Origin: Minisyncoccia bacterium | GTDB taxonomy: Bacteria; Patescibacteriota; Minisyncoccia; Phycocordibacterales; UBA918 | Direction of reading: 5' to 3' | Length of the DNA: 64,000 bases | NCBI GenBank assembly: GCA_041738755.1 | Contig: JBGSPE010000003.1 | Span: forward strand, 62,602 to 126,601 | In this document: positions 1,107 through 17,145 of the stretch, in pieces | Numbering within the stretch: the stretch's first letter is position 1 | Layout of the letters: each line of letters begins with the position of its first letter | The notes under the pieces: generated by a model | Seen by the model: only the letters and a program-made list of their open reading frames with translations | Told to the model about the DNA's origin: nothing | Database searches by the model: none | Position numbers and translations under genes: made by a program

Positions 1107-2858
1107 ATGTCAGAACAACTAAACAATAAACGACACACACTAGCCCACCTCTTGGCTGCGGCGGTCATTGAAACGTATCCCCATGCAAAATTGACCCTTG
1201 GTCCGGCTATCGATACGGGCTTCTACTACGATATCGACTTCGCTGAGGGAGATGTACCTGGTGACAGTGATCTCAAAGACCTCCAAAAGTTGATGAAGAA
1301 ACTCATCAACAAATGGACTGAATTCACTCACGAAGTCGTGACGGTAGATCGTGCTCAAGAAGTCTTTGCTGGTAACCAGTACAAGCTTGAATTGATTGAT
1401 GAAATTGATTCACGAGGCGAGACGATTACCCTCTACACAGTCGGTGGATTTACCGACCTTTGTCGGGGTGGACACTGTAACAATCCGAAAGAAGACATTA
1501 GTACTGATGCCTTTAAGCTCGACAAAATTGCGGGAGCCTACTGGCGCGGAGATGAAAAAAACCCAATGCTCACTCGTATCTACGGCATCGCATTTGATAC
1601 AAAAGAAGAACTTGAAGGCTACGAAAAGCAACTTGAAGAAGCAAAAGCCCGTGACCATCGTAAACTTGGGAAAGAACTTGACCTCTTTACCTTCTCTGAT
1701 TTGGTCGGACCTGGTCTTCCGCTCTTCACTCCGCGCGGTACGATGATGCGTGATCTTATCGTCGATAAAATCATGACTATTCAAGCCAAATACGGCTATC
1801 AAAAAGTCACCATCCCTCACATAACCAAAAGTGACCTCTACAAAACCTCTGGTCATTGGGAAAAGTTTGGTGATGAACTTTTCAAAGTAAAAGGTCAATC
1901 TGACGCTGAGTTTGTCATGAAGCCTATGAACTGTCCGCATCATACCCAAATTTTCGACAGCCGACCGCGCTCATACAAAGAACTTCCTATTCGCTATGCT
2001 GAAACAACCATGGTCTACCGGGATGAACAAGCCGGTGAATTGATTGGGTTAGGGCGCGTTCGAAGTATCACACAAGATGACGGTCACGTGTTCTGTACTG
2101 TTGATCAGATTGACCAAGAAGTCGAAAATATCGTTCGAGTGATACAAGAATTCTACACCTCACTAGGAATGTACAATGATGGTAATTTCTGGGTTTCACT
2201 CTCTACTAGCGATCCAAACAAGCCGGAAGACTATCTTGGTGATAGAGAAAACTGGAAAAAAGCTGAGACTATGCTCGAAGCAGTTGCTACGAGACTCAAC
2301 TTACCGTATAAGCGGATTGAAGGTGAAGCTGCATTTTACGGACCAAAACTCGACTTTATGTTCAAAGACGCCATTGGTCGTGAACGTCAGCTGGCGACCG
2401 CTCAGCTTGATTTTGTGATGCCGGAGCGTTTCTCTCTTTCCTACACAGATAACACTGGAGTGAAGCAAACACCCGTCATGATTCACCGAGCAATCGCGGG
2501 GTCACTCGAACGGTTTATGGCTATCATGATTGAGCACTTTGCAGGTAACTTCCCGCTTTGGCTCTGCCCAACACAACTAGCCATCATCCCCGTAGCAGAT
2601 ACACATACCCCGTACGCGCGAGAGATTGCAGCCCATTTGAAAAACCATAATTTCCGGATTGAACTTGATGAATCAAACGAAAGTATGGGTAAGAAGATTC
2701 GCACAGCTAAGAAGGACCGACTCCCCTACTTCATCGTCATCGGTGATAAGGAAGTGGAGAATAAGACCGTTACTCTTGAATCACGTGATACCGGTGAGTC
2801 AGTAACTCTGAACTTAGAGGAACTAATAGAGAAACTGACTGCAGAAAATACCAGGTAG
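1107..2858 (+). CDS. thrS: Threonyl-tRNA synthetase, short form lacking the N-terminal TGS domain but retaining the editing domain
   Basis: 583 aa. N-terminus 'RHTLAHLLAAAVIETYPHAKLTLGPAIDTGFYYDIDF' is editing-domain-like; class II core motifs and anticodon-binding C-terminus recognised by eye. Confidence 0.9.
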   Translation: MSEQLNNKRHTLAHLLAAAVIETYPHAKLTLGPAIDTGFYYDIDFAEGDVPGDSDLKDLQKLMKKLINKWTEFTHEVVTVDRAQEVFAGNQYKLELIDEIDSRGETITLYTVGGFTDLCRGGHCNNPKEDISTDAFKLDKIAGAYWRGDEKNPMLTRIYGIAFDTKEELEGYEKQLEEAKARDHRKLGKELDLFTFSDLVGPGLPLFTPRGTMMRDLIVDKIMTIQAKYGYQKVTIPHITKSDLYKTSGHWEKFGDELFKVKGQSDAEFVMKPMNCPHHTQIFDSRPRSYKELPIRYAETTMVYRDEQAGELIGLGRVRSITQDDGHVFCTVDQIDQEVENIVRVIQEFYTSLGMYNDGNFWVSLSTSDPNKPEDYLGDRENWKKAETMLEAVATRLNLPYKRIEGEAAFYGPKLDFMFKDAIGRERQLATAQLDFVMPERFSLSYTDNTGVKQTPVMIHRAIAGSLERFMAIMIEHFAGNFPLWLCPTQLAIIPVADTHTPYAREIAAHLKNHNFRIELDESNESMGKKIRTAKKDRLPYFIVIGDKEVENKTVTLESRDTGESVTLNLEELIEKLTAENTR

Positions 2859-2871
2859 AACTACCCACAAT

Positions 2872-2905
2872 AAAAAGGCCGGCCCTTATGGGCCGGCCTT
2901 TTTAT
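2872..2905. terminator. Bidirectional rho-independent terminator between thrS and the convergent giant gene
   Basis: Perfect stem ggccggccc(2877-2885)/gggccggcc(2890-2898) with a TTAT loop, flanked by AAAAA and TTTTT. Confidence 0.7.
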
Positions 2906-2946
2906 TATCAGCAAGAACACGCTCTTCGTGAAACAAGTAATCTGAT

Positions 2947-5900
2947 TTATATCTCTTCCAATTCCGCAACCACTTCAATATTCACACTATCGGTAAATGT
3001 CGTATTAGTCACCGGCTCAGTACAACTGAAGGTAAAGAGGCTCTTAGCATTAATCGGACCACTACCCTCAGTACCACTGGTACCGCTTGGATTCCGGTCT
3101 ACCCCTGGTCCATAGACCCGGCAATTCATTGGGTAGGTGGCTGCCGTAGACCACGTCAATGTAATAGTTTCACCTTGTTTGACTCGATACCTATCAGCAG
3201 TAAGATTTAAACCAGGATCTGGTGGCGGAATTGTAAAGGTAAAGACACGACTGTTATCCCCTTCATTAGTTTCAGTTACGGTATTTGTACTATCGACGAA
3301 GACTCTTGTCCGCGCAGCACCAAATGGTATTGAGCCAGTTACCCGTTCTGTTCGATTAACCGCTGAACCAACAGTGAGTAGTCCAAGTGAACCAGTAGTA
3401 GTGAACTCATACCCATCACCACTACGGTCAAACTGTAATTCGTAGTTAGCGCTAGCTAACGTATCACTTTCACCGTCGTTTCTCGTTTGAAATACAATAT
3501 CAATATAGTCATACATTCCTGTCACACTATTAAACGTTGGTGAAAGATTGTACGTAATATCTGGTTGGGTAAGATTTGGATAATTTCGAGTGGTAACAGT
3601 AACCGTCCTGTCGGTAGTACCACCAAGACCTGTACACGAAACAGTATAGACGGCGTTCGTTCCTGGAACTGGTGGTGTGACTGAATTGTCAGTCCCATTT
3701 TCGTTAGGCGACCCTCCGGTTGAGAAGCCACTACCAGCCGTTGCGGTACAACTTGAAGCACCAACACTCGTCCAGCGCAGCGCTATGGTATCACCAGGAT
3801 TTATCGTTGGATTGCTACTTAACCAAGCTCCAGTGCCGTTCACTCTTGTTTGTAGGGTCACACTCGGTGGTGGTGGTAAAGTGATGGTTACGGTGTGATT
3901 TGTACAGGCAGCTGGAAGTGTATTACCGATATCACGAGCACACGCTCTCACCGTATATGTCCCATCGGCTAACCACGTATTGTTAATTGTCCATTGCTGA
4001 CCTGTGGTGTATGTCGGTGATGGAGATGGAGTATCGTTTGATCCATTATTTTGCCAATCAATCGTGTAGTAGAACTGCGACGTTGGATTTGGATGTGTAG
4101 ACACAATTCTAAACTGCACTGGAGTACCAGCTACTCCAGCTGTACTTGCAGCTGGGAAGTTTACTGTTGGAGCATTGGGGGCTTGGGCATTTAAGTTTAC
4201 CTGAACGGTATCTGATTCGGTACCACACGTCAGAATATATGGGCTACTTTGTGTAATTGTCGCACCCACACTTCCATTTGCAGTGACAATTTGTGATCCG
4301 GCAGTTATACCAGCGCCACTTAACGTACACGTCGGTGTAGCACCAGTACTTGTCCACGTTAAACTCACCCCAGTGTTGTAATTCACCGATACCGGACCAT
4401 TAGACCCGTTGACCCTTAGGTCAGGCAATGTTGGACACGAAGCAGGAGTAAACCGTGTCACGGTGGAAGAATTTGGAGACTGTCCCGCCGCGTTGTTAGC
4501 TCGAACATAGAATGAATATGAAGTGTTCGTGCCTCCAGTGAAGGTGTAGTTTGAACCACCTGAGTTTGCGATAAATGTACCGTTACTGTAGTACACACTG
4601 TAACTAGTAGCTCCCGGCACATCATTCCAATCAAGGAAGAGCTGGTTAGTACCACAGGCCTGTGGAGTGGCGGTGAGGCCGGTTGGTGTAGCAGGCGCAC
4701 AGATAGTTGGCGTCGTCGCCGTTACGGTAGAAGAGTTTCCTGATTGAACTGAAGCTGCGTTATTCGCTCGGACATAAAACGAATAGCTGGTGTTTGGTGA
4801 CCCTGTAAAGGTGTAATTTGAACCAACTGAATTACCAACGAAGGTACCGTTACTGAGATACACACTGTAGCTGGCTGCATTAGTCGAATCATTCCAATCA
4901 AGGAAGAGTTGGTTGGTACCACAGGCTTGTGGTGTAGCAGTAAGACCAGTTGGCGTAGTTGCTGCTGGAGGTGCGCACACAGCTGGAGCATTGGCAGTCG
5001 CGAAGGCTGACCAGGCAGAGTTTCCAACAGCATTTTTAGCTCGGACTTGGAAGTCGTAGGTGGATCCAGGATTAAGTCCAGTGATAGTTCGGGGACTCGT
5101 GACATCATTCACTATTGTCCAACCACCACTTGGAGAAAGGCGGAACTGAATATCGTAGCCGGTTGCACCAGTTACATTTGACCAAGAAACAGTGACTGCT
5201 CCTGTGCCACAAGAGCCCGGAGTGGCGGTGGGGGTTGCAGGTTGTGCTGGTGCAGTCGCACACGCAACTGGCGCAGTCGCATTCATCGCTCCTGAGTAGG
5301 CAGATGAACCAGCACTATTAGTCGCTCGCACCGTATATGACTGGGCAGAGCCATTGGCTAGACCAGTGTGACTAAATGAAGTACTTGGTCCATCGTAGAT
5401 GACAGTACCTGCACCGTTGCGGAGCTGGTAGCTGGTGGCTCCAGAGACGGCTGACCAGGAGACATTTATCTGACCAGTACCACAAGCTTGAGGGGTGGCG
5501 GTAGGGGTGGCTGGGGTAGCTGGGGTAGCTGGGGTCACGGTAATAGTTGTCCAACCACTACAGTTATTTCCCTCATTAGACTCTGTCACTTCAGAACTTA
5601 TGTCCGCACAGACTTGTAGATAATAAGTACCAGGCCCTGAAAAGGTGTAGTTTACGTTGGCGTTTGACTCACTATAACCAGCTGGAAAACCAGCTGGAAT
5701 ACCACTCCTAAACAAAGCTGGCTGACTTGGTAAGCCTCCATTTCCGGCATTAGTATCAGTGTCAAACCAAAATCGAACATTGAAAGGTGCGCCGGTTGAA
5801 AGAGTACCTTGGTTTCGTACAAGCGCACTATAATTGGTTGCGCTACCCGGATTGACTGACGTTGCCCCACTGACTGAGGGGACGATAACATCTGACTGAC

Positions 5901-8328
5901 CACAACTACTTGGAGCCGTTGCGCTCCTTGCTCCTGAGTACGCAGATGAGCCGCCAGCGTTAATGGCTCGCACCGTATATGACTGGGCAGAGCCATTGGC
6001 TAGACCAGTGTGACTAAATGAAGTACTTGGTCCATCGTAGATGACGGTACCGGCACCGTTGCGGAGCTGGTAGCTGGTGGCTCCAGAAACAGCATTCCAA
6101 GAAACGTTTATTTGACCAGTTCCACATGAGCCGGGAGTAGCGGTAGGGGTGGTGGGGGTGGTTGGTGCACAAATATTTGGTGATGTCCGACTTATCGAGG
6201 CTGATTCCGCTCCCGCTCCAGCTCCATTCCAAGCTCGCACTCGGTAGGTATACAGGGAATTAGGTAACGGTGCAGTATGGGTGAATGAGGTGACATTACC
6301 GACGTTTTGCCATGCTCCATTAATTTGAATATCATATCCAGACGCTCCGGCAACACTGTTCCAGGTAAGGTTAATTTGATTCGTACCACAGGAGCTGGGA
6401 GTGCCGTTAAGGCCAGTTGGGGTGGCGGGTGGACAAACATTTGGTGTTGTTGCATTAACAGAACCTGAGTAGGCAGATGAACCAGCACTATTAGTCGCTC
6501 GCACCGTATATGACTGGGCTGAGCCATTAGCTAAACCAGTGTGACTAAATGAAGTACTTGGTCCATCGTAGATGACAGTACCTGCGCCGTTGCGGAGCTG
6601 GTAGCTGGTGGCTCCAGAGACGGCTGACCAGGAGACATTTATCTGACCAGTACCACAAGCTTGAGGAGTTGCGGTAGGGGTGGTGGGTTGTAAAGGTGTG
6701 ACTGGGCAGTTAGTTTGATACCGTGCAATCATAGTAGTGACACCATTTATGAATGTTGTTTCTACACACTGATTGGGAGGAAAAGCGGCAAGCCAAGTAA
6801 AGTAATCCATTACAGGTAGTGGGGTTCTAATATCAGGAGTCCATCCTCGGCCGACACATGTATCACCCGCGGTTGTGATAGCAATACTACTAATTCCAGG
6901 ATTGGCACAAACATCAAACGTAATAGGTGGGACTGGAGGTCCCGGAATATCGATAGGATGAGCATTGACTACCGAAAATGGTACTACACTGGCCCCGAGC
7001 ATACACAGTACTATCAGTAGTGGCCCCAGACTGTCGGGAGCTTTCGTGTTGTGGCGAAGTGTATACTCACGACGATGGACAATCCAAACCAGGATAAGTA
7101 ACACGAGTAATAAAGCTGCACCACCATAAAGAAATAAAGGATTGAATATAATTCCCTCAGAGAGTGTTATGTTTTCAGACGGTTCTTGGTGACACGCTCC
7201 ACCCAATACGTCACAGTCATACGTTACTGTTTCTTGCGACACCGGTACACCATCTCTTTCAATTGTGGATGTTAGCAAAATAGCATTCTGATTGGTAGGA
7301 GGCACAAAACTTGGTATACTCGCATCAGAAATACTATCCCCTGCAACTGACGCTACCGTTAATCCGGCAGGATCAGTCAGTTCAAATGATAAACGATACG
7401 GTGTAAGTTCAGCCGTGGCTGGCGTAGCAATACAGTAAAATAGGTCTGCTGACTGATTAGCAGACAACGGAATATCACGTACGCCAGCAACCAATATTCG
7501 TGGGTCAGGTGTAGCTTTTAGAAACTGAAAGTCCTGTATTGACTTAGCTCCCCTATCATCAATAATTGCATTAACTAAAAATTCTTTATCACTAGTGGGC
7601 TTGGTAGTATACGTAATCACTTCTTCACTATTAGCGGCGATGGTAAGGATACTCGATTTAGTATCAAGCCGACTGTCTTCAGTCGGGTATGGTCCCAGAT
7701 ACTGATTCCACTGTATCGGAACAACTTTGTCTTCATCTGTTGCGTTGATTACTGCAACGCTTATAGTTACACTCTGATCATCGGTGATTATTGTTTGATC
7801 AAAACTCTCATACGGTTGACCATTAATCTGCATCGTGTTGTGATCAAGCTGTACCACCTCACTTTCTGAGGCAATTGTAAAACGTGGACCATATCCCAAC
7901 CCTATTGCCGTCTCACCCATGAATGACATTACGTACTGGATAGCGTAATCACCCATTGGCTGATTTTCAGGTACCACCCATTCGTCAGCAAAAGAATACT
8001 TGCCTTGTGCCGGTAGTATGATATTTTCTTCGACCACATAGGTATCGACTAATCGCAACGATTGATCTTCCCGAATTTGAAACACTCTTGCTCGCAGTTC
8101 TGCAACGGGGACCGTGATGCTATTTTGATTTTCAATACTTCCAGTGAATCCAACCGGGGTTTGTGGTACCCCGATGGCTACCGTACTAGTGACAGCCAGT
8201 TTAATATTAGTCAGTGCAAAGTTGTCAGTACAGAAGAGGTTATTACGAGCGGCAGGAGTTTCGGTTGGTGCCTGTTGTGCGAATATTGTACTCACTGAAG
8301 AGAAAAGCAACATAAGTACAAGGGTCAC
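2947..8328 (-). CDS. Giant secreted surface protein (1793 aa) with a signal peptide, an N-terminal ~420-aa module, an internal two-helix membrane hairpin, ~6 fibronectin-III-like modules and CARDB-like motifs
   Basis: Signal peptide MTLVLMLLFSSVSTIFAQQ. Near-identical Fn3-type modules (TPTATPQACGTGQINVSWSAVSGATSYQLRNG...) occur three times, plus two copies of a second module. CARDB-type 'TESNEGNN'/'TETNEGDN' motifs. Internal LFLYGGAALLLVLLILVWIV-HRREYTLRHNTKAPDS-LGPLLIVLCMLGASVVPFSVVNA. Confidence 0.75.
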   Translation of the reverse strand: MTLVLMLLFSSVSTIFAQQAPTETPAARNNLFCTDNFALTNIKLAVTSTVAIGVPQTPVGFTGSIENQNSITVPVAELRARVFQIREDQSLRLVDTYVVEENIILPAQGKYSFADEWVVPENQPMGDYAIQYVMSFMGETAIGLGYGPRFTIASESEVVQLDHNTMQINGQPYESFDQTIITDDQSVTISVAVINATDEDKVVPIQWNQYLGPYPTEDSRLDTKSSILTIAANSEEVITYTTKPTSDKEFLVNAIIDDRGAKSIQDFQFLKATPDPRILVAGVRDIPLSANQSADLFYCIATPATAELTPYRLSFELTDPAGLTVASVAGDSISDASIPSFVPPTNQNAILLTSTIERDGVPVSQETVTYDCDVLGGACHQEPSENITLSEGIIFNPLFLYGGAALLLVLLILVWIVHRREYTLRHNTKAPDSLGPLLIVLCMLGASVVPFSVVNAHPIDIPGPPVPPITFDVCANPGISSIAITTAGDTCVGRGWTPDIRTPLPVMDYFTWLAAFPPNQCVETTFINGVTTMIARYQTNCPVTPLQPTTPTATPQACGTGQINVSWSAVSGATSYQLRNGAGTVIYDGPSTSFSHTGLANGSAQSYTVRATNSAGSSAYSGSVNATTPNVCPPATPTGLNGTPSSCGTNQINLTWNSVAGASGYDIQINGAWQNVGNVTSFTHTAPLPNSLYTYRVRAWNGAGAGAESASISRTSPNICAPTTPTTPTATPGSCGTGQINVSWNAVSGATSYQLRNGAGTVIYDGPSTSFSHTGLANGSAQSYTVRAINAGGSSAYSGARSATAPSSCGQSDVIVPSVSGATSVNPGSATNYSALVRNQGTLSTGAPFNVRFWFDTDTNAGNGGLPSQPALFRSGIPAGFPAGYSESNANVNYTFSGPGTYYLQVCADISSEVTESNEGNNCSGWTTITVTPATPATPATPTATPQACGTGQINVSWSAVSGATSYQLRNGAGTVIYDGPSTSFSHTGLANGSAQSYTVRATNSAGSSAYSGAMNATAPVACATAPAQPATPTATPGSCGTGAVTVSWSNVTGATGYDIQFRLSPSGGWTIVNDVTSPRTITGLNPGSTYDFQVRAKNAVGNSAWSAFATANAPAVCAPPAATTPTGLTATPQACGTNQLFLDWNDSTNAASYSVYLSNGTFVGNSVGSNYTFTGSPNTSYSFYVRANNAASVQSGNSSTVTATTPTICAPATPTGLTATPQACGTNQLFLDWNDVPGATSYSVYYSNGTFIANSGGSNYTFTGGTNTSYSFYVRANNAAGQSPNSSTVTRFTPASCPTLPDLRVNGSNGPVSVNYNTGVSLTWTSTGATPTCTLSGAGITAGSQIVTANGSVGATITQSSPYILTCGTESDTVQVNLNAQAPNAPTVNFPAASTAGVAGTPVQFRIVSTHPNPTSQFYYTIDWQNNGSNDTPSPSPTYTTGQQWTINNTWLADGTYTVRACARDIGNTLPAACTNHTVTITLPPPPSVTLQTRVNGTGAWLSSNPTINPGDTIALRWTSVGASSCTATAGSGFSTGGSPNENGTDNSVTPPVPGTNAVYTVSCTGLGGTTDRTVTVTTRNYPNLTQPDITYNLSPTFNSVTGMYDYIDIVFQTRNDGESDTLASANYELQFDRSGDGYEFTTTGSLGLLTVGSAVNRTERVTGSIPFGAARTRVFVDSTNTVTETNEGDNSRVFTFTIPPPDPGLNLTADRYRVKQGETITLTWSTAATYPMNCRVYGPGVDRNPSGTSGTEGSGPINAKSLFTFSCTEPVTNTTFTDSVNIEVVAELEEI

Positions 8329-8482: not shown

Positions 8483-9919
8483 TTATTTATAGTGAGGCAT
8501 ATCTTCACTCCGGGTATTTCTTGGGATTGCAGAGTTACGCGGCTTTCGGTGAGTCCAGATCCAGGCGAAGATAAAGAAGGTAACTAAAACTACACCAAAC
8601 AAGAGAATTGGCATATTAAGTTTTAAAAAGGACGTACCGTCTATTGCAACATCTTCTTGCTCAGTTTGCTCTAGGCCACACACACTATCGGCAAACTGTT
8701 CACATAAAAATGGAATCGTATAACTCTCTACCTCTCCCCCGCCGAGCAATAATTTCACTTGCAGAGTAACGGCTTGAAGGTCAGTCTCTGGAGTGAACGC
8801 TTGTATAAAAGCGTAAGTATCCTCGAGTAAGATGCTGGTCTGTGTGTATTTTGAAAGTTCCGCACCTGAGGCATCAAGCAAGGTCAACTCAATCGTCGTA
8901 TCAGGAATCGGGGTAGTATATGGTGCTTCAAGACAAACTACCATGGAAACTGACTGTCCGGCTCTTAGCGGGAAAGCTGTGAGACCAGCAACGGTACTTC
9001 GTACCTCATACCCTTCTGCGCGGACAATTGGAATGTTTAACATTCGTTTTGAATCACCATCTTGCAGTTGTGCTACGAGATGAATCTTCGATTCTAATTG
9101 ACCAATGACATCATAAGAAACCTCAACCGACTCACCAGCTGGAATGGTAAGTGACTCAGTTTGGGTGTATCGGAGATTAGCTTCTGTGAGAGCATGGTTG
9201 GCATACTGTAACCACTGTACCGTGACTGTTTTATCAATTGTACTTGGATTAGAAACTACTGTAGTAACAGCAATTGCATCATTGCGTGGGGCGACAGGCA
9301 AGGTAGTGACGTCGTAGGTTTGGCCAGCAATTGTTGTCCGACTTTTTTCAAACGTAACCAGTGAATTAACGTCGGCTCCGCCAACGGTAAACTCGGTCGT
9401 GCCAAGAGACGTACTATCTGCTGTGAATTCTCCAGCAAGGGGTTGACCATTTTGGGCATGGAGTGAGTAACTCACATAATAGGTACCTTGTTCAACAGTG
9501 GTTGGCACCTGCCACGTTACCGTAGTGGGCATTTTGGAGTTTGCTCCCAGACCTAGATTTTCCCTTACAACAAACTGATCAATCGACACATCAACTGATG
9601 CGTCAGCATTACTTCCACCCAGTTTAAACACTTTAGCAACGAGGGTAGCTCCAGCAATGGCTAGTGTGTTTTTGTTTTCGATGACGACTTCAAAGGTAAG
9701 TGTTTCGCCTTGATTAATAGTTAGCGCCTCTCCTTCCCGGGAGATGGTCACGAGGCTGGACTGGAAATACTCACTACATAAGCCAACAATATCGGTAGCG
9801 AACGGTTGCGCTACGGGTCTTGGAGGAGCTTCACTTCCCTCTTGAGCGATGACAAGTGGAACCTGAGAGAACAGTGTGATGGCTGCGATGAACGCAGAGA
9901 GGATTTGGGTCTTACTCAT
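8483..9919 (-). CDS. Membrane-anchored surface protein (478 aa; signal peptide, beta-rich ectodomain, Cys pair, C-terminal TM and basic tail); paralog of the N-terminal module of 2947..8328
   Basis: Signal peptide MSKTQILSAFIAAITLFSQVPLVIAQE. C-terminus ...FLCEQFADSVCG...ILLFGVVLVTFFIFAWIWTHRKPRN. Same layout and Cys positions as the first 420 aa of the giant neighbour. Confidence 0.7.
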   Translation of the reverse strand: MSKTQILSAFIAAITLFSQVPLVIAQEGSEAPPRPVAQPFATDIVGLCSEYFQSSLVTISREGEALTINQGETLTFEVVIENKNTLAIAGATLVAKVFKLGGSNADASVDVSIDQFVVRENLGLGANSKMPTTVTWQVPTTVEQGTYYVSYSLHAQNGQPLAGEFTADSTSLGTTEFTVGGADVNSLVTFEKSRTTIAGQTYDVTTLPVAPRNDAIAVTTVVSNPSTIDKTVTVQWLQYANHALTEANLRYTQTESLTIPAGESVEVSYDVIGQLESKIHLVAQLQDGDSKRMLNIPIVRAEGYEVRSTVAGLTAFPLRAGQSVSMVVCLEAPYTTPIPDTTIELTLLDASGAELSKYTQTSILLEDTYAFIQAFTPETDLQAVTLQVKLLLGGGEVESYTIPFLCEQFADSVCGLEQTEQEDVAIDGTSFLKLNMPILLFGVVLVTFFIFAWIWTHRKPRNSAIPRNTRSEDMPHYK

Positions 9920-10040: not shown

Positions 10041-12980
10041 TTATGCGACTTCTTTCACTGCCTTCATAATTGACATCTTGACCGCTGACGCCTCGTCAGT
10101 GTACGTTCCGTCAATTGCTCCAGTGAGCGCATCAATCATGTTCTTAATCTTTTCATCACTCAACTTCGCTGTTGTGGTGGTAAGGAGGTCAGAGACAACA
10201 TGTTGTTCACCTCGACGGTTTCGGTACACCGCATCTAAGTCAGCAGCAGCGTCAGCGAGTGCGAACATTGGTCGATTACCAATCATTTCGTATGCCGCAA
10301 CGATGTTGCCAGTGACGATAGCTTCGGCGAGCGAACCTGAACCTTCAGGCACCATAGTTGGTGTGAATGAAGGCGCTTTCGCTTCAGTGGCTGCATCAAC
10401 TCGACACACTGCACAGAGATTTTGCATCCGAGCTTCATTGATTACAATCCAACCATCTTCAAGTGGGTATGATTTCTTGGCTTCGACAATCACTGCGTCA
10501 AGCGCATCATTTCGTTCAACCGTACCTTCAGTGGTACTAATAAAGTACTGAACCGCGTCGCTTGAAAGAAGTGCCTTTTGAGCATGCGCTCGATTTTCAA
10601 GATCAGTTACTATTTCATCACTAACTGGAATTTGATTGACCGGAGTGTTGGCATAGTTTGCATATCCTACAACTGCTTCCGTTGGAAGATTAGCCGGGAT
10701 AGAAGCAACTGTTGAGGTAGCGACTGGTGCTACAGACGGTGTTACAAAGAGATCTGGTCGGACTGCTTCTGCTTGTCGCATCATCTGGTGTGAAGTATCA
10801 GCCTCAGGGTAGGTGTAGTCAATATTTGCAGTAACGGCAACTTGTCGTCGGATGACAATGAGGTAGGTTACGTATAATGCCCACGCCATCAAGAGGAGGT
10901 AGAAGAAGAGGGTCAATACGGGACCAGCTTCAAACCCAGTGTATGGCACATCAGTGAGTGAAATACCAGCGACAAGTGGTTGTTGGTCTCGTGCTTGTAA
11001 GAGAACAGTTTCGTCTTCGACTTCTACTTCAACTGAACATTCACGGTCTCGTGATCCTCGGGCAGCATTAATAGTGTATTCGGTATCTCGAGTTGGTCGG
11101 AGTTCAATTTCTCCATCATAGAGTTCATCTTTATCTCGAGCTGGCACACCATCAGTTGTGACGATTACGTTTCCTCGGTCATCTTCAATCGTGACTGCAG
11201 TAGCGCGGCTCGTGTCCCAGGTAAGGGTAATCTCTTCACCTCGGCGGATAGTCGTATCTGAGATAGTGAGTTCACATCGTGGAGTTGAACTTCCACCACC
11301 TCCGCCACCACCTCCGTTATCTTCATCAACATTGATTACTACCGGACAATCAACACTTCGATTTCCTTCCGTTGCGGTGAGTACGTAGGTAGTATTTGAG
11401 TTAGGTGAGACAGTTTGCGTTCCATTCAAGGTCGTAGCGTTGATAACGCTAATTGAGACACTATCGACTCCGGTGGTATTCCAGGTCAAAACTGAACTAT
11501 CACCTTCATCGATACTGTTTGGTGAAGCGGCAAAGGTAACGTTATTTTCACAGGTAAGCGTATCAGTTACCGGTGGTTGCACCGTTACTGGTGCTGGACA
11601 AGAAACCGTATCTCCATTGCTATCAGTTGCGGTGAGCGTAAAGTTAGTATTGGTATTTACAAAGAGACTTTGTGAACCAGTCAGCCCCACCATTCCAGCC
11701 GTCGGAGTAATCGATACTGAATTGGCACCGGTTACTACCCAAGCAAGCGTTGTTGTACCACCACCATTTGGAAGAATAGCTGGAGTAGCGGTGAAGCTTT
11801 CACAGACTGGTACCGGATCATCTGATACGGTTACCGTAACCTGACAATCATCTGTTTGGTTATTCGCACCGAATACCGTAAGGGTGTAGGTAAGCGTAGC
11901 AAGCGGTGTCACTGAGACAGAACCGTTAACAGGGACATCTCCCACACCATTATTGATAACCACTCGATTGGCGTTCACTGTTGTCCAGGCGAGAGTCACT
12001 GGCGTACCAGTTGTAACTGTTCCTGGAGTTGCGGTGAAGCTTTCACAGTTTGGAGCCACTGGAGTTACACAATCGTTATCAATTTGAGTTCGTACAATTT
12101 GACTATGGACAAACGTACCGAAGTTGTTGAGTTCGTAAGCTGTTGCACGAGCTTGGTTTGTCACTTCAAAGTCCCCACACTGCGTTGGTGCAGTCACCTT
12201 CCCTACCCACGTGATAGTTCCATACTCACCTGGAGTTAGAACGTGACCATTAAAAAGGAGGGTTCGTGTACTGTCTTGATAGACGGGTGTATTGCCATAA
12301 CCAGCAGTGAGGTTTGCGGTGAGCGTATAACGGAGGTATTGAATGTGATTTTGAATAGCATCTTCAATTCGAACGCCGTCGCCGGTACAATTTGCAGTAC
12401 CAATGTTCTTGACGACAATCGTGTAGGTAAGTTCATCTCCCACCATAGCATTTGTCTTATCAACTGCCTTAGTGATTTCAAGCTTACACTCGGTTACGAC
12501 TGGTGGTGGTAAACAAATGATTGAGACTTGGGTACGACACTTATCGTTACCATCCTCAGCTTCAATAACATACGTAGTATTCACGAGAATATTAGTGTAG
12601 GTTTTTGAACCTTGTGGTCCGCTGACTGATTCACCATTAATGGTGACATTTGAGAAGCCACTCACATCCCAGGTAAGGGTGATTGATCCACCAGAAATAA
12701 TTTCAGTGAAATCTGTCTTCAGTGAACACTTCTTGAAAACAATGTTGTTTGAAACGCTTCCAAGGTCTGGCTGATTGCCTACATTACCAGAAACTGAAGG
12801 AAGTGTCGGAGTCTCAAGTAAGTCGAGACTACCGAAGCCCGGAAGACTTGCCCCATCAAGGATTGAAGCGTTTGCCAATTGCGGTCCTGCCACAAACGTA
12901 ACCAACGCTAAAACCACTACTGTGACTTTAAAGGTCTTGAGTAATGTGTTCATAATACTATTGTTATAATTGCTATTCAT
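10041..12980 (-). CDS. Large surface protein with DUF11/Ig-like repeat modules, a poly-Gly linker, an LPXTG-like 'VPYTG' motif plus TM plus RRQ, and a 266-aa C-terminal cytoplasmic domain
   Basis: Start chosen at ATG 12980 (GGAG 12 nt upstream) giving MNSNYNNSIMNTLLKTFKVTVVVLALVTFVAGPQLANA; the track start at 13118 is probably not used. Repeated ~90-aa beta modules ('ITKAVDKTNAMVGDELTYTIVVKNIGTANCTGDGV' DUF11-like). 'DEDNGGGGGGGGSS'. '...SLTDVPYTGFEAGPVLTLFFYLLLMAWALYVTYLIVIRRQ' then 266 further residues. Confidence 0.7.
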   Translation of the reverse strand: MNSNYNNSIMNTLLKTFKVTVVVLALVTFVAGPQLANASILDGASLPGFGSLDLLETPTLPSVSGNVGNQPDLGSVSNNIVFKKCSLKTDFTEIISGGSITLTWDVSGFSNVTINGESVSGPQGSKTYTNILVNTTYVIEAEDGNDKCRTQVSIICLPPPVVTECKLEITKAVDKTNAMVGDELTYTIVVKNIGTANCTGDGVRIEDAIQNHIQYLRYTLTANLTAGYGNTPVYQDSTRTLLFNGHVLTPGEYGTITWVGKVTAPTQCGDFEVTNQARATAYELNNFGTFVHSQIVRTQIDNDCVTPVAPNCESFTATPGTVTTGTPVTLAWTTVNANRVVINNGVGDVPVNGSVSVTPLATLTYTLTVFGANNQTDDCQVTVTVSDDPVPVCESFTATPAILPNGGGTTTLAWVVTGANSVSITPTAGMVGLTGSQSLFVNTNTNFTLTATDSNGDTVSCPAPVTVQPPVTDTLTCENNVTFAASPNSIDEGDSSVLTWNTTGVDSVSISVINATTLNGTQTVSPNSNTTYVLTATEGNRSVDCPVVINVDEDNGGGGGGGGSSTPRCELTISDTTIRRGEEITLTWDTSRATAVTIEDDRGNVIVTTDGVPARDKDELYDGEIELRPTRDTEYTINAARGSRDRECSVEVEVEDETVLLQARDQQPLVAGISLTDVPYTGFEAGPVLTLFFYLLLMAWALYVTYLIVIRRQVAVTANIDYTYPEADTSHQMMRQAEAVRPDLFVTPSVAPVATSTVASIPANLPTEAVVGYANYANTPVNQIPVSDEIVTDLENRAHAQKALLSSDAVQYFISTTEGTVERNDALDAVIVEAKKSYPLEDGWIVINEARMQNLCAVCRVDAATEAKAPSFTPTMVPEGSGSLAEAIVTGNIVAAYEMIGNRPMFALADAAADLDAVYRNRRGEQHVVSDLLTTTTAKLSDEKIKNMIDALTGAIDGTYTDEASAVKMSIMKAVKEVA

Positions 12981-13191
12981 AAATTCAATACTCCGACCTA
13001 CCAGGTTGCGGTACGCGAGAGTAACAAAGTCTACGAAACTATGTGTGAGAGAACTGTGGCCAGTAAAGTGTACCAGCACCTGATAATTTATAATATACCA
13101 TATATTGAGTTTTGTCAATAGTTATAGGCTTTTGTACTTCTCTTAAACAACCTCTCGTAACATTGCCTAAGCTGGCCAATCTGCTTGATTC

Positions 13192-13872
13192 TTACAACGT
13201 TCGAACTGAAATTTGCTTGGCTTCGACAATAAAGCGGTCGTCAGTACTTCCAAAACTATTACAGGTAGCCAGTGTGAGGAGTTTTTGATCCCCCGCAATT
13301 GGAACGGTGACATCTTGAGCTCGCGCTTTATAGGTATTTTGCACTTCATATACCACAACTGCCGTGTCAGTCGTAACTTCGATAGTATCTCCCCACTCAA
13401 GATCTTCAATACCATTAAAGGCTTGGAAGTTACGATTGAGGACAGTTGGGAGGTAGCTCGAGTGGCCCAAGATAAAGACGTTCCCATCTTGTGCAAGATG
13501 AGCAGAATCAGGGTGTCGTACCACTCCACTCAAAAGAGCATTATCAAGATCAGCTACGGTTCGAGATGTTGGATTTAAGACCGGGACGGTTCGGTCAAGC
13601 TTGGCAATATAAATTGAACGCGGCAAAACCGGACCGACAGTCTCATCAAGCTCATCAATTGAAGCCGCTTGTTCGATAGCCTGATTCTGTTCAGGCACGA
13701 TAATTTCTTGCGCTGGCTCAAATGGCACGACTTCTTCCTTTGGTTCAGGGACAAAATCAATTGCCACCAAGAGTAAGTATGAGAGTGAAAAAATCACAAA
13801 AAAGACACCGAAGAAAGCGGTCTTTCGTTCCCAAATTGCATCAGTGAGTGTTTGAATAGTGTGTCGAGACAT
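13192..13872 (-). CDS. Sortase family transpeptidase with an N-terminal TM anchor
   Basis: TM 'TAFFGVFFVIFSLSYLLLVAIDF'; His region 'VFILGHSSY'; catalytic 'LLTLATCNSFGSTDDRFIV' (TLxTC plus the conserved Arg). Confidence 0.75.
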   Translation of the reverse strand: MSRHTIQTLTDAIWERKTAFFGVFFVIFSLSYLLLVAIDFVPEPKEEVVPFEPAQEIIVPEQNQAIEQAASIDELDETVGPVLPRSIYIAKLDRTVPVLNPTSRTVADLDNALLSGVVRHPDSAHLAQDGNVFILGHSSYLPTVLNRNFQAFNGIEDLEWGDTIEVTTDTAVVVYEVQNTYKARAQDVTVPIAGDQKLLTLATCNSFGSTDDRFIVEAKQISVRTL

Positions 13873-13887
13873 AAAATGTATCCCGAT

Positions 13888-13915
13888 ATTATACGCACTT
13901 TTATTAAAAAGTCAA
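13888..13915 (-). promoter_or_regulatory. Near-consensus sigma70-type promoter for the sortase/surface-protein transcript
   Basis: On the minus strand: TTGACT (plus 13910-13915), 16-nt spacer, TATAAT (plus 13888-13893); leader to the sortase ATG at 13872 is about 8-10 nt. Confidence 0.45.
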
Positions 13916-13998
13916 TACTTAGGCCCTCTTCTTTAAAATAAGGGATTAAAACCATAACTATTGACAAATAGGTTGTAAAGTAGTATGTTGCGAAGACT

Positions 13999-15024
13999 AT
14001 GAATAACGTTACCATTGAAGTTGAAAAGAAAACTGTCGTCATGAAGTCTTTGGCAATCCTAGGCCTCATTTTTATCATTAGTTTCATTGCGTGGTTATCA
14101 GTTCAAATCGTTGCGGTAGCGCCAAGCGCCTTCTCTTCCCTGGCCTCGCTCGCAAGCAGCATCTCAGATGCGCGTGAAGAGGTGGTTGAAGAAATGAAGG
14201 AACCAGAAGTCCTCACCATCCAGAGCAACACTCAAACTATTACCACGAGCGAGCAAGTGGTACTTTCCTGGGACGACGTAGACGCACCTGGTACCTATGC
14301 ATTTGTGTACGAATGTTCAAATGGAGTAACGGTTGAAATTACGGGAGTTGATGGATTTCGAAATATCGCCTGTGGCACCAACTACAACCTTGGTGATATC
14401 CAAAACCTGACCTTCACCGTTGCCTCAAATGAAATTCGCAGTACCGACATCGCGTACACTATTTCATTTTTAAGAAGTGATGAAACAAAGCCATCACACA
14501 TCGGAAGCGGTACAGTAACCGTTACAAATCTTGCGATTGCTGATCCAAATGAACCAGTAGTCGAAGCAGAGGAGGAAACCCCAGAAGTCGTAGTTGAAGA
14601 AGAGGCTCCAGCCGTTACTCCTCCGGTGGTAGTTGAAGAGCCAGAATTTGTTTTCGAAATCCCCGTCTCAAATCCAAATGGTACCGCCGACCTTACAACT
14701 CGATTTCTCAATGTTGGAGAAATTATCAATAATCGCTTTGTTGCAGGCACAGTTGAGAGAGATGAAACAGGAGCTATTCAATTTGAAGTCCGAAACATTG
14801 GTAATAAAACTTCAGAGTCATGGAGTTTCGAAGTAAGCTTACCTGACGGTTCAACCTATGAGTCAACTACGCAAGCGCCACTTCGACCAAACGAACGAGC
14901 AACCCTTGCCCTTGGCTTCGAAGCTGATGGCGGATCAAGTTTTACGTTTGAAGTTTCCGTTGAAAGTGACGATGAACGAACTGAAAACAATAATTCATTC
15001 CGACAAATCGTTTCATTTCGATAG
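13999..15024 (+). CDS. N-terminally membrane-anchored protein with a Glu/Pro/Val-rich linker and a CARDB-like domain
   Basis: TM 'LAILGLIFIISFIAWLSVQIVAVA'; linker 'EPVVEAEEETPEVVVEEEAPAVTPPVVVEEPE'; C-terminal 'DERTENNNSFRQIV' CARDB-type signature. Possible promoter TTGACA(13961-13966)/TATGTT(13984-13989). Confidence 0.65.
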   Translation: MNNVTIEVEKKTVVMKSLAILGLIFIISFIAWLSVQIVAVAPSAFSSLASLASSISDAREEVVEEMKEPEVLTIQSNTQTITTSEQVVLSWDDVDAPGTYAFVYECSNGVTVEITGVDGFRNIACGTNYNLGDIQNLTFTVASNEIRSTDIAYTISFLRSDETKPSHIGSGTVTVTNLAIADPNEPVVEAEEETPEVVVEEEAPAVTPPVVVEEPEFVFEIPVSNPNGTADLTTRFLNVGEIINNRFVAGTVERDETGAIQFEVRNIGNKTSESWSFEVSLPDGSTYESTTQAPLRPNERATLALGFEADGGSSFTFEVSVESDDERTENNNSFRQIVSFR

Positions 15025-15030
15025 AAATAC

Positions 15031-15066
15031 AAAAAGTCCCGGGCCATTGGCCCGGGACTTTTTGTA
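15031..15066. terminator. Bidirectional terminator between 13999..15024 and gyrB
   Basis: Stem gtcccgggcc(15036-15045)/gcccgggac(15050-15058) flanked by AAAAA and TTTTT. Confidence 0.65.
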
Positions 15067-15069
15067 TTT

Positions 15070-17145
15070 CTAAATATCCACGTTCGCCATTTTGGCGTTG
15101 TTTTGAATAAATGATTTTCGACTTGGAACGTCGTTCCCCATCAAAATATCAAACACTCGGTCGGCCGCCATCGCGTCTTCGACACAGACTTGCTTCAAGA
15201 TTCGATTGGCTGGATTCATCGTTGTTTCCCAGAGCTCGTCCGCGTTCATTTCTCCCAGACCCTTGTACCGTTGAATACGTGCCTTCCCTGTCTTCTTGAC
15301 CACCTCTTCGGTCTCTTCCTCTTCACTCTCATCTACTACTTCAACATCCTCACTCACGTCTTCACCCATATCCTTAAGGATAGAGAATTTTTCAGTGTCA
15401 TCAAACGCATACCGAACGTCTTTCCCTTTCTGAATTTTATAGAGTGGTGGTTGCGCAATATAGACAAATCCTCCATCAACTAACTGTCTAAAGTAGCGGT
15501 AGAACAGCGTTAAGAGTAACGTTCGAATGTGTGCACCGTCAACGTCTGCGTCAGTTGCGATAATAATCTTGTGATACCGTAATCGAGAGATATCAAACAC
15601 GTCGCCAATTGCTGTCCCAAGCGCAATCACGAGATTTTTAATCTGTTCTGACGCCAGCATTTTATCAATTCGGGCCCGCTCGACATTAAGAATCTTACCT
15701 CTAAGTGGCAAAATAGCCTGCGTCTTTCGGTCCCGCCCCATCTTGGCTGATCCACCGGCTGAGTCTCCCTCCACAATAAAGATTTCGGAATCTTCCGCCC
15801 GCTTACTTTGACAGTCGGCCAACTTACCCGGAAGTGACATCCCTTCAAGGGCACCCTTACGAAGCACGCTATCCTTAGCTGCCTTAGCTGCCTTACGGGC
15901 TTTTACCGCAATAATCACTTTGTTTATGATGGCTTTTGCGTCATCTGGGTTTTCTTCAAGGAAATTATTAAATGCCTCACCAAAGACTGATTCGGTTGCA
16001 CTTCTAGCCTCCACTGATCCAAGCTTGGCTTTGGTTTGTCCTTCAAATTGAATCTCAGGCATCTTTACCGATACTACTGCCGTGATACCTTCGAGTACAT
16101 CGTCACCGGTAAAGCCAGCGTCTTTGTCTTTGACTGAGAAAAAATTATTTTTCTTAGCGTAGGTATTGAGGGTTCTTGTTAGCGCGGTTTTAAAACCAGT
16201 GATGTGAGTCCCGTGCTCTGGGTTATAGATATTGTTCGCAAACGCAGTGATTCTCGGTGAAATATCATCGACGTATTGAAGCGCAACTTCTACCGACAAC
16301 ACCGCCGCATCAACCTCATTTTTTTCAACGTAGAAAATATTTTTATGAACGGGCTTTTGGTACTTGTTATTAAACGCCACCAATGACCGTAGTCCACCTT
16401 CAAAGTAGAAAGTCTGTTGTGGTACGACCAAGTGCTCATCGGCCAGATATTGCTTACCCTTAAGATCAAGTTTCTTTTGAACATCTTCATCGATGTCTCT
16501 CGCATCAATCACCGTCAGATGCATAGCTTTCACCAAGTACGCTTGTTGTCTCAAGTGGGTGAAGATTCGCTTGTAGTCGTATTTAATTTCTTTGAAGATA
16601 TCAATATCTGCCTTGAATGTAATCACCGTACCTTGGAGTTTTGAGGGACCTATTTTCTTAGTTTTATAAACTGGCTTCCCAATTTTATATTCCTGCATGT
16701 GATAGCTACCGTCTCGATGCACTTCTGCAATCAAGTGCTCTGAAAGAGCATTCACAACCGATACCCCTACCCCGTGCAGTCCACCAGACACCTTATAACC
16801 TGATTCATCACCACCAAACTTTCCTCCGGCGTGCAGCACGGTCAAAATAGTTTCAAGGGCAGATACACCAGTCTGCTTATGAACATCAACTGGAATTCCT
16901 CGGCCATTATCAACGACGCGAATATAATTGTCAGGCAAGAGTGCCACTTCAACCCGATTAGCAAAACCGCCCATCGCTTCATCGCGTGAGTTATCAAAAA
17001 TCTCCCAGATCAAGTGATGCAATCCATCAGGACCAGTCGTGCCAATGTACATCCCCGGACGCTTTCGCACTGGCTCGAGTCCTTCGAGAACGGAAATTGA
17101 GGAAGCGTCGTAATTTTTACTCTTTTCAGGTTTTTTCGCCGGCAT
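15070..17145 (-). CDS. gyrB: DNA gyrase subunit B
   Basis: 691 aa. N-terminal GHKL ATPase ('LEGLEPVRKRPGMYIGTTGPDGLHHLIWEIFDNSRDE'), Toprim 'EGDSAGGSAK', C-terminal GyrB tail. Confidence 0.9.
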   Translation of the reverse strand: MPAKKPEKSKNYDASSISVLEGLEPVRKRPGMYIGTTGPDGLHHLIWEIFDNSRDEAMGGFANRVEVALLPDNYIRVVDNGRGIPVDVHKQTGVSALETILTVLHAGGKFGGDESGYKVSGGLHGVGVSVVNALSEHLIAEVHRDGSYHMQEYKIGKPVYKTKKIGPSKLQGTVITFKADIDIFKEIKYDYKRIFTHLRQQAYLVKAMHLTVIDARDIDEDVQKKLDLKGKQYLADEHLVVPQQTFYFEGGLRSLVAFNNKYQKPVHKNIFYVEKNEVDAAVLSVEVALQYVDDISPRITAFANNIYNPEHGTHITGFKTALTRTLNTYAKKNNFFSVKDKDAGFTGDDVLEGITAVVSVKMPEIQFEGQTKAKLGSVEARSATESVFGEAFNNFLEENPDDAKAIINKVIIAVKARKAAKAAKDSVLRKGALEGMSLPGKLADCQSKRAEDSEIFIVEGDSAGGSAKMGRDRKTQAILPLRGKILNVERARIDKMLASEQIKNLVIALGTAIGDVFDISRLRYHKIIIATDADVDGAHIRTLLLTLFYRYFRQLVDGGFVYIAQPPLYKIQKGKDVRYAFDDTEKFSILKDMGEDVSEDVEVVDESEEEETEEVVKKTGKARIQRYKGLGEMNADELWETTMNPANRILKQVCVEDAMAADRVFDILMGNDVPSRKSFIQNNAKMANVDI

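What the first reader, a model, noticed from the sequence alone, without database searches (positions are those of the whole stretch)
2947..8328. Giant Fn3/CARDB surface protein containing an internal two-helix membrane hairpin; its N-terminal module is a paralog of the neighbouring gene (fusion or helical-hairpin anchor)
The first ~420 aa (signal peptide, beta-rich domain, CDVLGGAC Cys pair, TM, HRREY) have the same layout as the complete 478-aa neighbour 8483..9919 (signal peptide, beta domain, C-x-x-x-x-C, TM, HRKPRN). In the giant ORF, however, the basic stop-transfer stretch is followed in frame by a second signal-peptide-like hydrophobic segment ('LGPLLIVLCMLGASVVPFSVVNA') and ~1350 aa of Fn3/CARDB modules. 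Either two ancestral genes fused by loss of a stop, leaving an out-in-out hairpin with both large domains extracellular, or the second segment acts as an internal signal-anchor.
Basis: partly seen in the sequence, partly recalled or inferred. Interest (0 to 1): 0.5.

Follow-up and report, generated by a model that had tools for sequence, protein, structure and literature searches.

The report
Surface protein with internal signal peptide
This giant gene from a tiny uncultured (Patescibacteria) bacterium is the fused form of a widespread, undescribed two-gene surface cassette, and the second "membrane helix" in its middle is the signal peptide of the downstream partner, so one gene probably yields two surface proteins.

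Summary
ORF 2947..8328(-) is an intact 1793-aa gene. Its first ~430 aa are a full-length paralog of the neighbour 8483..9919(-) (25% identity, E 6e-29). Two hydrophobic segments, aa 397-417 and 434-456, flank a basic loop.

It is not an artefact. A profile search of 1.84 billion protein representatives found 946 relatives. All 96 long ones among the best 150 show the same pattern: TM1, a short K/R loop, then a second hydrophobic segment ending in a signal-peptidase-type site (consensus [A/V]-E-A|K-S-V-T-W).

In many metagenome loci the same two parts are separate adjacent genes. Gene A is signal peptide, three beta-sandwiches, a TM and a basic tail. Gene B starts with an ordinary N-terminal signal peptide carrying the same site. 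In L122 the stop of A and the ATG of B are in frame, 9 nt apart.

So the second segment is B's signal peptide made internal by fusion. Fused and split states changed at least 24 times on a tree of 146 members.

Most likely mechanism (inferred): Sec export, stop-transfer at TM1, re-initiation at the internal signal peptide, and signal peptidase I cleavage after VNA456. This would give a hairpin-anchored A chain and a 1337-aa Ig-domain B chain. Cleavage is untested. Neither Pfam, NCBIfam nor PDB sequence search gives a significant match to A or B's leading domain.

The parts
2947..8328 (-). Whole fused A-B gene, 1793 aa (GTG start at 8328; alternative ATG at 8313)
8278..8328 (-). N-terminal signal peptide SP1, aa 1-17 (MTLVLMLLFSSVSTIFA|QQ). 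It has no basic n-region.
   Evidence: Sequence. The family consensus cleavage is xxA|Q.
7159..8277 (-). A module, aa 18-390: three beta-sandwich domains, paralog of the neighbour gene
7192..7215 (-). Membrane-proximal Cys pair CDVLGGAC (aa 372-379). Both Cys are invariant or nearly invariant across the family.
7078..7140 (-). TM1, the stop-transfer helix, aa 397-417 (PLFLYGGAALLLVLLILVWIV)
7030..7077 (-). Cytoplasmic basic loop, aa 418-433 (HRREYTLRHNTKAPDS). It corresponds to the tail of A fused to the n-region of B's signal peptide.
6961..7029 (-). Internal signal peptide SP2 (= 'TM2'), aa 434-456 (LGPLLIVLCMLGASVVPFSVVNA). The predicted signal peptidase I site is VNA456|H457, between bases 6961 and 6960.
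   Evidence: homology to N-terminal signal peptides of split B genes
6694..6960 (-). Start of the B chain: Cys-rich ~90-aa domain (aa 457-545). It is shared with P0003 and stands where most family members have the 'KSVTW' domain.
4435..6693 (-). Lineage-specific insertion: seven Cys-bounded Fn3 repeats and one CARDB domain (aa 546-1298). Three of the repeats are 84-92% identical at the DNA level.
2950..4434 (-). Conserved B core (aa 1299-1793): Ig-like, PKD-like and CARDB domains, then a terminal Ig domain ending ...VVAELEEI-COOH
   Evidence: 44-46% identity to P0003, P0004 and P0006; matches to the L002 ortholog; C-terminal motif
8483..9919 (-). Stand-alone A paralog (478 aa): signal peptide, three beta-sandwiches, Cys pair, TM, HRKPRN tail. 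It is probably co-transcribed with the giant gene.
   Evidence: A strong terminator lies at 9986-10022(-) upstream, and none was found between the two genes.

Best explanation
The ORF is a real single gene. It is the fused form of a widespread two-gene surface cassette.

- Part A is a signal peptide, three beta-sandwich domains, a Cys pair, a TM helix and a basic tail.
- Part B is a signal peptide followed by a string of Ig-like, PKD, CARDB and (here) Fn3 domains, with no other membrane anchor.

In the fused gene, B's signal peptide has become internal and forms the second hydrophobic segment.

Proposed biogenesis:
1. SP1 targets the chain to Sec and is cleaved.
2. The A module is translocated.
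3. TM1 stops transfer, and the K/R/H-rich loop stays in the cytoplasm.
4. The internal signal peptide re-initiates translocation, and the 1337-aa B part is exported.
5. Signal peptidase I cleaves after V-N-A456.

The result would be two chains from one gene, made 1:1 at one translocon. One is an A chain of about 440 aa, anchored by TM1 and keeping the signal peptide as a second helix. The other is a long beta-rich B chain that has to stay on the cell by binding A or the wall, or else is released.

Shown: the gene is real, A is a paralog of the neighbour, fused and split forms are equivalent across the family, and the internal segment is homologous to true N-terminal signal peptides. Inferred: the topology, the cleavage, the A-B association and an adhesin or surface-structure role.

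The stated confidence of 0.6 covers the whole statement including cleavage. The sub-claim 'genuine A+B fusion with an internal, export-competent signal-peptide homolog' stands at about 0.9.
For: Reality and paralogy.

Family size: 946 representative clusters at E<=1e-3 and 291 at E<=1e-30. Lengths are bimodal, about 430-540 aa and 850-1790 aa.

The hairpin pattern in the long forms:
- All 96 long members of the best 150 have TM1, a basic loop (median 7.5 aa, median net charge +3.5) and a second hydrophobic segment.
- After the second segment, E is at -2 in 53/96, K at +1 in 47/96, S at +2 in 50/96, W at +5 in 37/96 and P at -6 in 30/96. P or G lies at -7..-4 in 79/96, and Pro is never at +1.
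- The second segment has a shorter hydrophobic core than TM1 (median 12 against 17.5 residues).

Independent assemblies: 44 fused, 29 short and 6 truncated among the metagenome loci.

Split loci: the short A gene is followed within 0-30 nt by gene B. B begins with a canonical signal peptide that ends at the same site. In L122 it reads MKKILLLLLLCFTLFSTGEAEA|KSVTWSS and the protein ends TVEEI. There the stop of A and the ATG of B are in frame, 9 nt apart.

Fused and split states are intermixed on the A-module tree: at least 24 changes among 146 sequences.

Close relatives keep the fusion. These are P0003 (...FSVVNA|HPIN), P0004, P0006 and the syntenic L002 gene (...GEA|KNVTWN).

P0003's own N-terminal signal peptide ends GSVVNA|Q, almost the same c-region as the internal FSVVNA|H.

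No other hydrophobic segment occurs in B. SecA is encoded in the window.
Against: - No experimental or proteomic evidence of cleavage exists, and no dedicated predictor (SignalP, DeepTMHMM) was available.
- In this particular protein the second segment is 23 uncharged residues long, enough to span a membrane uncleaved. It also lacks the family's E-A|K-S-V-T-W consensus and the 'KSVTW' domain.
- My choice of the cut position used a -3/-1 pattern, so the A at -1 (89/96) and the A/V at -3 are partly forced.
- If B is cut off, nothing yet explains how it stays on the cell.
- SP1 of the giant has no basic residue.
- The function of A and B is inferred only from generic beta-sandwich folds.
Confidence: 0.6

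Rival explanations
1. The fusion is the same, but the second segment is not cleaved. It acts as a reverse signal-anchor. The mature protein is then one 190-kDa chain with an out-in-out helical hairpin that tethers both the A module and the Fn3/Ig string to the membrane.
For: - The window segment has 23 uncharged residues and could span a bilayer.
- B has no other anchor or wall-sorting signal, so staying uncleaved would explain how it is retained.
- E. coli CcmH is a known uncleaved hairpin fusion of this topology (own knowledge).
Against: - Small residues at -3/-1, a helix breaker at -4..-7 and the absence of Pro at +1 are conserved in about 90% of highly diverged members. An uncleaved anchor would not require this.
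- In split genes the homologous segment is a short N-terminal signal peptide. Its h-region of about 13 residues in L122 is too short for a stable anchor.
- Frequent switching between fused and split states implies that both give the same mature product.
Confidence: 0.3
2. Artefact: an assembly chimera, sequencing frameshift or missed stop codon joined two separate genes in this window.
For: - Split A and B genes exist in other genomes.
- The gene contains near-identical Fn3 repeats that could trouble assemblers.
Against: - There is no stop or frame change at the junction.
- Both flanks read as hydrophobic segments in the same frame.
- The identical protein was predicted in an independent public collection.
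- 96 of 96 long representatives and 44 metagenome loci have the same uninterrupted junction, including the closest orthologs.
- The repeats lie about 300 nt or more downstream of the junction and are only 84-92% identical.
Confidence: 0.02
3. B is made separately from an internal translation start inside the fused ORF, so the fusion is only apparent at the protein level.
For: Gene pairs with overlapping or closely abutting A and B genes occur in the family.
Against: - In the window there is no in-frame ATG, GTG or TTG between TM1 and the second segment. The first is M444, inside the hydrophobic core, which would leave no n-region.
- The loops of fused relatives usually have no Met.
Confidence: 0.03

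Closest known systems
Viral envelope glycoprotein polyproteins with internal signal peptides (bunyavirus Gn-Gc, alphavirus E2-6K-E1, flavivirus prM-E); own knowledge
   Same: The layout is the same: signal peptide, ectodomain, stop-transfer TM, short basic cytoplasmic loop, internal signal peptide, second ectodomain. Signal peptidase cuts after the internal signal, which stays as the second helix of the upstream chain. The two products assemble 1:1.
   Different: These are eukaryotic ER systems encoded by viruses, and they share no sequence relationship with this gene. The gene here is bacterial and chromosomal (none was found in viral contigs), and cleavage has not been shown.
Bradyrhizobium japonicum FbcH, the cytochrome b-c1 precursor (Thony-Meyer et al. 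1991; own knowledge, paper not in the searchable library)
   Same: It is a bacterial single ORF whose downstream half starts with an internal signal-peptide-like segment. Processing there gives two membrane or periplasmic proteins. The same two proteins are encoded by separate genes in other bacteria.
   Different: The upstream partner is a polytopic cytochrome and the proteins are unrelated. FbcH is a single case, not a family of hundreds of diverged members that switch between fused and split forms.
E. coli CcmH, a fusion of CcmH and CcmI (own knowledge)
   Same: It has a cleaved N-terminal signal peptide, a periplasmic domain, a TM-loop-TM hairpin and a second periplasmic domain. It arose by fusion of genes that are adjacent and separate elsewhere.
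   Different: The second TM is a permanent anchor without a signal-peptidase site. There is no sequence similarity.
Clostridioides difficile SlpA, an S-layer precursor (own knowledge)
   Same: One ORF yields two surface subunits that stay together non-covalently.
   Different: It is cut by the cysteine protease Cwp84, not at an internal signal peptide. It has no membrane hairpin and is wall-anchored by CWB2 repeats.
Multi-domain Fn3/CARDB/PKD bacterial surface adhesins
   Different: B has no LPXTG, lipobox, SLH or other known anchoring signal. It is coupled to a dedicated membrane-anchored partner module that has no Pfam, NCBIfam or PDB sequence relative.

Membership tests
Pfam fn3 (PF00041) / CARDB (PF07705) domain proteins | Match to the family HMM above the gathering score | tested here: met
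   fn3 scores 91.2 bits against a cut-off of 25. CARDB scores 44.7 bits against 22.7.
Sec-type cleavable signal peptide (internal segment aa 418-456) | Positively charged n-region | tested here: met
   The loop HRREYTLRHNTKAPDS has 4 K/R and 3 H. The family loop has median net charge +3.5.
Sec-type cleavable signal peptide (internal segment aa 418-456) | Short h-region followed by a helix breaker and a c-region | tested here: inconclusive
   Across the family the hydrophobic core has a median of 12 residues and P or G lies at -7..-4 in 79/96. The window copy has 23 uncharged residues, broken by G445 and P450.
Sec-type cleavable signal peptide (internal segment aa 418-456) | Small residues at -3 and -1, and no Pro at +1 | tested here: met
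   The site is V-N-A|H-P. In the family, Pro at +1 occurs in 0/96. P0003's own N-terminal signal peptide ends the same way, VVNA|Q.
Sec-type cleavable signal peptide (internal segment aa 418-456) | Homology to bona fide N-terminal signal peptides | tested here: met
   Split loci encode gene B starting M-K-K, an h-region, then AEA|KSVTW, in register with the internal segment of fused genes.
Sec-type cleavable signal peptide (internal segment aa 418-456) | Actual cleavage by signal peptidase I | not testable with these tools
   This needs proteomics or reporter assays.
Polyprotein with internal signal peptide (FbcH type / viral glycoprotein precursor type) | A single ORF with an upstream stop-transfer TM, a cytoplasmic loop and an internal signal peptide with an SPase site, where the partners are separate genes elsewhere | tested here: met
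Polyprotein with internal signal peptide (FbcH type / viral glycoprotein precursor type) | Two mature polypeptides demonstrated | not testable with these tools
   No protein-level data are available.
Sortase substrate (LPXTG sorting signal) | LPXTG-like motif, then a TM and a basic tail at the C-terminus | tested here: not met
   There is no LPXTG-like motif before TM1 in the giant, in the neighbour or in relatives. TM1 is not C-terminal in the giant. The sortase context is not family-wide.
Bacterial lipoprotein | Lipobox [LVI][ASTVI][GAS]C at the end of the signal peptide | tested here: not met
   IVLC442 has Leu at -1, and no Cys is conserved in the segment across the family.
Alpha-2-macroglobulin / MG-domain proteins (for the A module) | Pfam MG2 match above the gathering score | tested here: not met

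The most novel reading that the evidence does not exclude
This would be a large, so far undescribed family of natural bacterial polyproteins. Signal peptidase I, acting at an internal signal peptide placed after a stop-transfer helix, would turn one ORF into two subunits of a conserved cell-surface complex: a hairpin-anchored base A plus a long Ig-domain arm B. The genome-resolved members are Patescibacteria. The gene boundary would be evolutionarily free to open and close because both states give the same products. The complex could be a main envelope or host-attachment structure of these epibiotic bacteria.
Probability: 0.45. Interest if true: 0.65.

Novelty: new variant of a known kind. Interest (0 to 1): 0.5.

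Why it matters
- **A rare mechanism in bacteria.** Internal, cleavable signal peptides that split one ORF into two exported proteins are routine in enveloped viruses but very rare in bacteria. Here there seem to be hundreds of diverged natural examples, each with a matched split-gene control. That makes a ready-made system for studying stop-transfer and re-initiation at SecYEG, and SPase I action on internal sites.

- **A new surface system.** The work defines a two-component surface cassette (A and B) for which Pfam, NCBIfam and PDB sequence search give no significant match to the A module or B's leading domain. Its genome-resolved members belong to Patescibacteria, whose envelope and attachment proteins are largely unknown.

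- **Annotation.** 'Giant hairpin' proteins of this kind should be read as A+B fusions. Short A genes should be paired with the downstream B gene.

Tried and rejected
**Searches that found nothing useful**
- The word-indexed homolog search found nothing with the junction region and only 4 proteins with a 51-sequence profile. The exhaustive HMM search was needed.
- Exact look-up of the product failed for both start codons, and cluster look-ups gave no names. Taxonomy beyond the genome-resolved loci (window, L001, L002) is therefore not established.
A 12-sequence alignment worked.
- Pfam and NCBIfam have no family for the A module or for B's leading domain. PDB sequence profiles gave nothing significant.
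- A viral origin is unsupported: no relative was found in viral contigs.
- Literature searches found no description of the family, and the FbcH paper is not in the library.
- The AFDB fold library was unavailable.

**Ideas rejected**
- A frameshift or stop at the junction.
- A sortase-substrate reading of TM1.
- A lipoprotein reading.
- A family-wide link to the sortase and DUF11 genes. That context occurs only in the window and in L002/L086.

**Not resolved**
- A motif scan for a signal peptidase I gene in the window found nothing convincing.

Full report
**1. What is in the window**

ORF 2947..8328(-) is intact and encodes 1793 aa from a GTG start. Public gene callers start at the ATG five codons later, and that 1788-aa product is identical to database protein P0001.

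A hydrophobicity scan finds exactly two strong internal segments, at about aa 397-417 and 434-456. They are separated by HRREYTLRHNTKAPDS. Nothing hydrophobic follows in the remaining 1337 aa.

The junction DNA (window 6961-7140) reads through in one frame. It has no stop and no in-frame start codon before M444, which lies inside the second segment.

The first ~430 aa align end to end with the 478-aa product of the neighbouring gene 8483..9919(-). Signal peptide, beta-rich body, Cys pair, TM helix and basic tail all match (25% identity, E 6e-29).

Pfam finds fn3 and CARDB in the downstream part. There are seven Cys-bounded Fn3 repeats between aa 546 and 1298, and three of them are 84-92% identical at the DNA level.

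**2. Organism and synteny**

The adjacent ThrRS is 76-86% identical to ThrRS genes of uncultured Patescibacteria (Paceibacteria/Parcubacteria) genomes.

One of these, L002, carries a 1249-aa gene at the same place, convergent with thrS. Its layout is the same:
- signal peptide;
- A module;
- Cys pair;
- TM1, then KKRRNH;
- a second hydrophobic segment ending GEA|KNVTWN;
- a long beta-rich C-terminal part ending ...GVIEEI.

L001, the closest genome by ThrRS, ends inside the C-terminus of a homolog.

**3. The hairpin is a family trait, not an accident**

A profile of the two window paralogs was searched against 1.84 billion representative proteins. It found 946 relatives at E<=1e-3 and 291 at E<=1e-30. 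Lengths are bimodal, about 430-540 aa and about 850-1790 aa.

All 96 long proteins among the best 150 show TM1, a short basic loop (median 7.5 aa, median 4 K/R, median net charge +3.5) and a second hydrophobic segment.

That second segment looks like a signal peptide rather than a membrane anchor:
- Its hydrophobic core is shorter than that of TM1 (median 12 against 17.5 residues).
- P or G lies at -7..-4 in 79/96.
- Pro is never at +1.
- The site consensus is P(-6)...[A/V]-E-A|K-S-V-[T/S]-W-[N/S].

My placement of the cut used a -3/-1 pattern, so A at -1 and A/V at -3 are partly forced. Positions that were not forced are still strongly conserved: E at -2 in 53/96, K at +1 in 47/96, S at +2 in 50/96, W at +5 in 37/96.

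The window protein and its nearest relatives P0003 and P0004 are a divergent branch (VNA|HP, IIHA|QL). P0003's own N-terminal signal peptide ends GSVVNA|QE, almost the same as the internal FSVVNA|HP.

**4. Fused and split forms**

A scan of metagenome contigs returned 79 loci. Of the A-module ORFs in them, 44 are long with the hairpin, 29 are short and 6 are cut by contig ends.

About 19 of the 29 short A genes have a downstream gene that starts within 0-30 nt, or overlaps. By my reading, that gene encodes an ordinary N-terminal signal peptide ending at the same site:
- L122: MKKILLLLLLCFTLFSTGEAEA|KSVTWSS...
- L095: ...VGSAEA|KSVTWSQ
- L119: ...SGDVEA|KSVVWST
- L143: ...NSAEA|ASVYWNK
- L150: ...PLAHA|ESVLWNT

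These genes continue into the same domains as the fused proteins and end ...TVEEI.

In L122 the TAA of gene A and the ATG of gene B are in frame, 9 nt apart. One substitution would recreate the fused architecture.

On a neighbour-joining tree of 146 A modules, the fused/split character needs at least 24 changes. Shuffled labels need 41.6 on average and never fewer than 32. The state therefore carries phylogenetic signal but flips often.

This is strong evidence that the internal segment is gene B's signal peptide, and that fused and split versions are functionally interchangeable.

**5. What the parts are**

The window protein lacks the KSVTW domain. In its place are a ~90-aa Cys-rich domain shared with P0003 and the Fn3/CARDB array. 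It keeps the conserved last ~500 aa, at 44-46% identity to P0003, P0004 and P0006.

35 of 96 B parts end [E/Q]-E-[I/V/L/F/T]-COOH, as the window protein does (ELEEI). A second group ends ...CDFNWKEVAP.

Neither Pfam, NCBIfam nor PDB sequence profiles recognise A or the KSVTW domain. No relative was found in viral contigs, and no paper describing the family was found.

**6. Mechanism**

The most likely sequence of events is as follows.
1. SP1 directs the chain to Sec. SecA is encoded in the window.
2. The A module is exported.
3. TM1 stops transfer, and the basic loop stays inside, as the positive-inside rule predicts.
4. The internal signal peptide restarts translocation of B.
5. Signal peptidase I cuts after VNA456.

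This would give an A chain with a two-helix hairpin and a free 1337-aa B chain.

The steps up to the out-in-out topology follow from the sequence and from the equivalence with split genes. I put them at about 0.9. Cleavage is inferred from the conserved site and from the interchangeability of fused and split forms. I put it at about 0.6.

The main rival, at about 0.3, is that the segment stays uncleaved as a second membrane helix. In the window copy this is physically possible, since the segment has 23 uncharged residues, and it would explain how B stays on the cell.

An artefact is very unlikely (about 0.02), and internal initiation has no start codon to use (about 0.03).

The biological role is a surface structure or adhesin of an epibiotic, small-genome bacterium. 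This is a reasonable inference from the domain types only.

**7. Local context**

A strong terminator at 9986-10022(-) lies upstream of the stand-alone A gene, and none was found between that gene and the giant gene. The two are therefore probably one transcription unit.

The sortase and DUF11 genes upstream are shared only with L002/L086 and are not part of the family's conserved context.

**8. Comparison and novelty**

The design is that of viral glycoprotein polyproteins and of the Bradyrhizobium FbcH cytochrome b-c1 precursor (own knowledge). If the segment is uncleaved, it is that of E. coli CcmH. The kind of mechanism is therefore known.

What appears new is a large, diverged bacterial family built this way, with natural split-gene counterparts, and a partner module that no database describes. 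I rate it a new variant of a known kind, interest 0.5.

Noticed in passing
window 10041..13118 (-), with the sortase gene at 13192..13872 (-): A DUF11-repeat surface protein carries an LPXTG-like sorting signal: ...LTDVPYTGFEAGP, then a TM helix, then RRQ. The motif is conserved as VPYTG in L002. Instead of ending there, the protein continues with about 300 more, presumably cytoplasmic, residues. A sortase gene sits directly upstream (Pfam Sortase E 2.5e-20). Sortase cleavage would separate an exported Ig-repeat part from a large cytoplasmic domain, which is unusual for a sortase substrate.
   Followed up: partly
L081 6108..9986 (also L082, L083), flanking the short A gene P0094: This is a B-like protein with a KSVTW-like domain, PKD-like domains and a terminal Ig domain ending WQEF. 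Its N-terminus is a TM anchor, a run of nine Gly and a Hint/intein-like domain (CFISDTD...VVHN). A second, nearly identical Hint copy is inserted mid-protein. Some B-type proteins may therefore be released from a membrane anchor by autoprocessing rather than by signal peptidase.
   Followed up: partly
L113 9680..13243 and 13234..16389: Two fused A-B genes lie in tandem, each with its own TM1, basic loop and internal signal peptide.
   Followed up: no
L154 1501..2703 and 2731..3963; L148 2264..3694 and 3698..4735: These loci are split at other points. In L154 gene B itself begins with a TM1-like helix, KKKK and the signal peptide. In L148 the break lies inside the signal peptide. They could be real variants or sequencing errors.
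   Followed up: no
window 38588..45739 (-) and 45743..53674 (-): Two further giant ORFs lie back to back, 2383 and 2643 aa. The only Pfam hits are weak (EPTP; Peptidase_G2 autoproteolytic domain).
   Followed up: partly
window 4435..6693 (-): Seven Fn3 repeats, each bounded by a Cys pair. Three are recent duplicates (84-92% DNA identity, spacing 531-642 nt). This is a lineage-specific expansion absent from P0003 and L002.
   Followed up: partly
window 2950..3000 (-) and the C-termini of family members: Many B parts end in a conserved free C-terminus, [E/Q]-E-[I/V/L/F/T] (ELEEI here). Another subgroup ends ...CDFNWKEVAP. This could be a docking or recognition tail.
   Followed up: partly
window 8278..8328 (-): The N-terminal signal peptide of the giant gene has no Lys or Arg in its n-region with either possible start codon, unlike its ortholog P0003 (MRLYTV...).
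   Followed up: no
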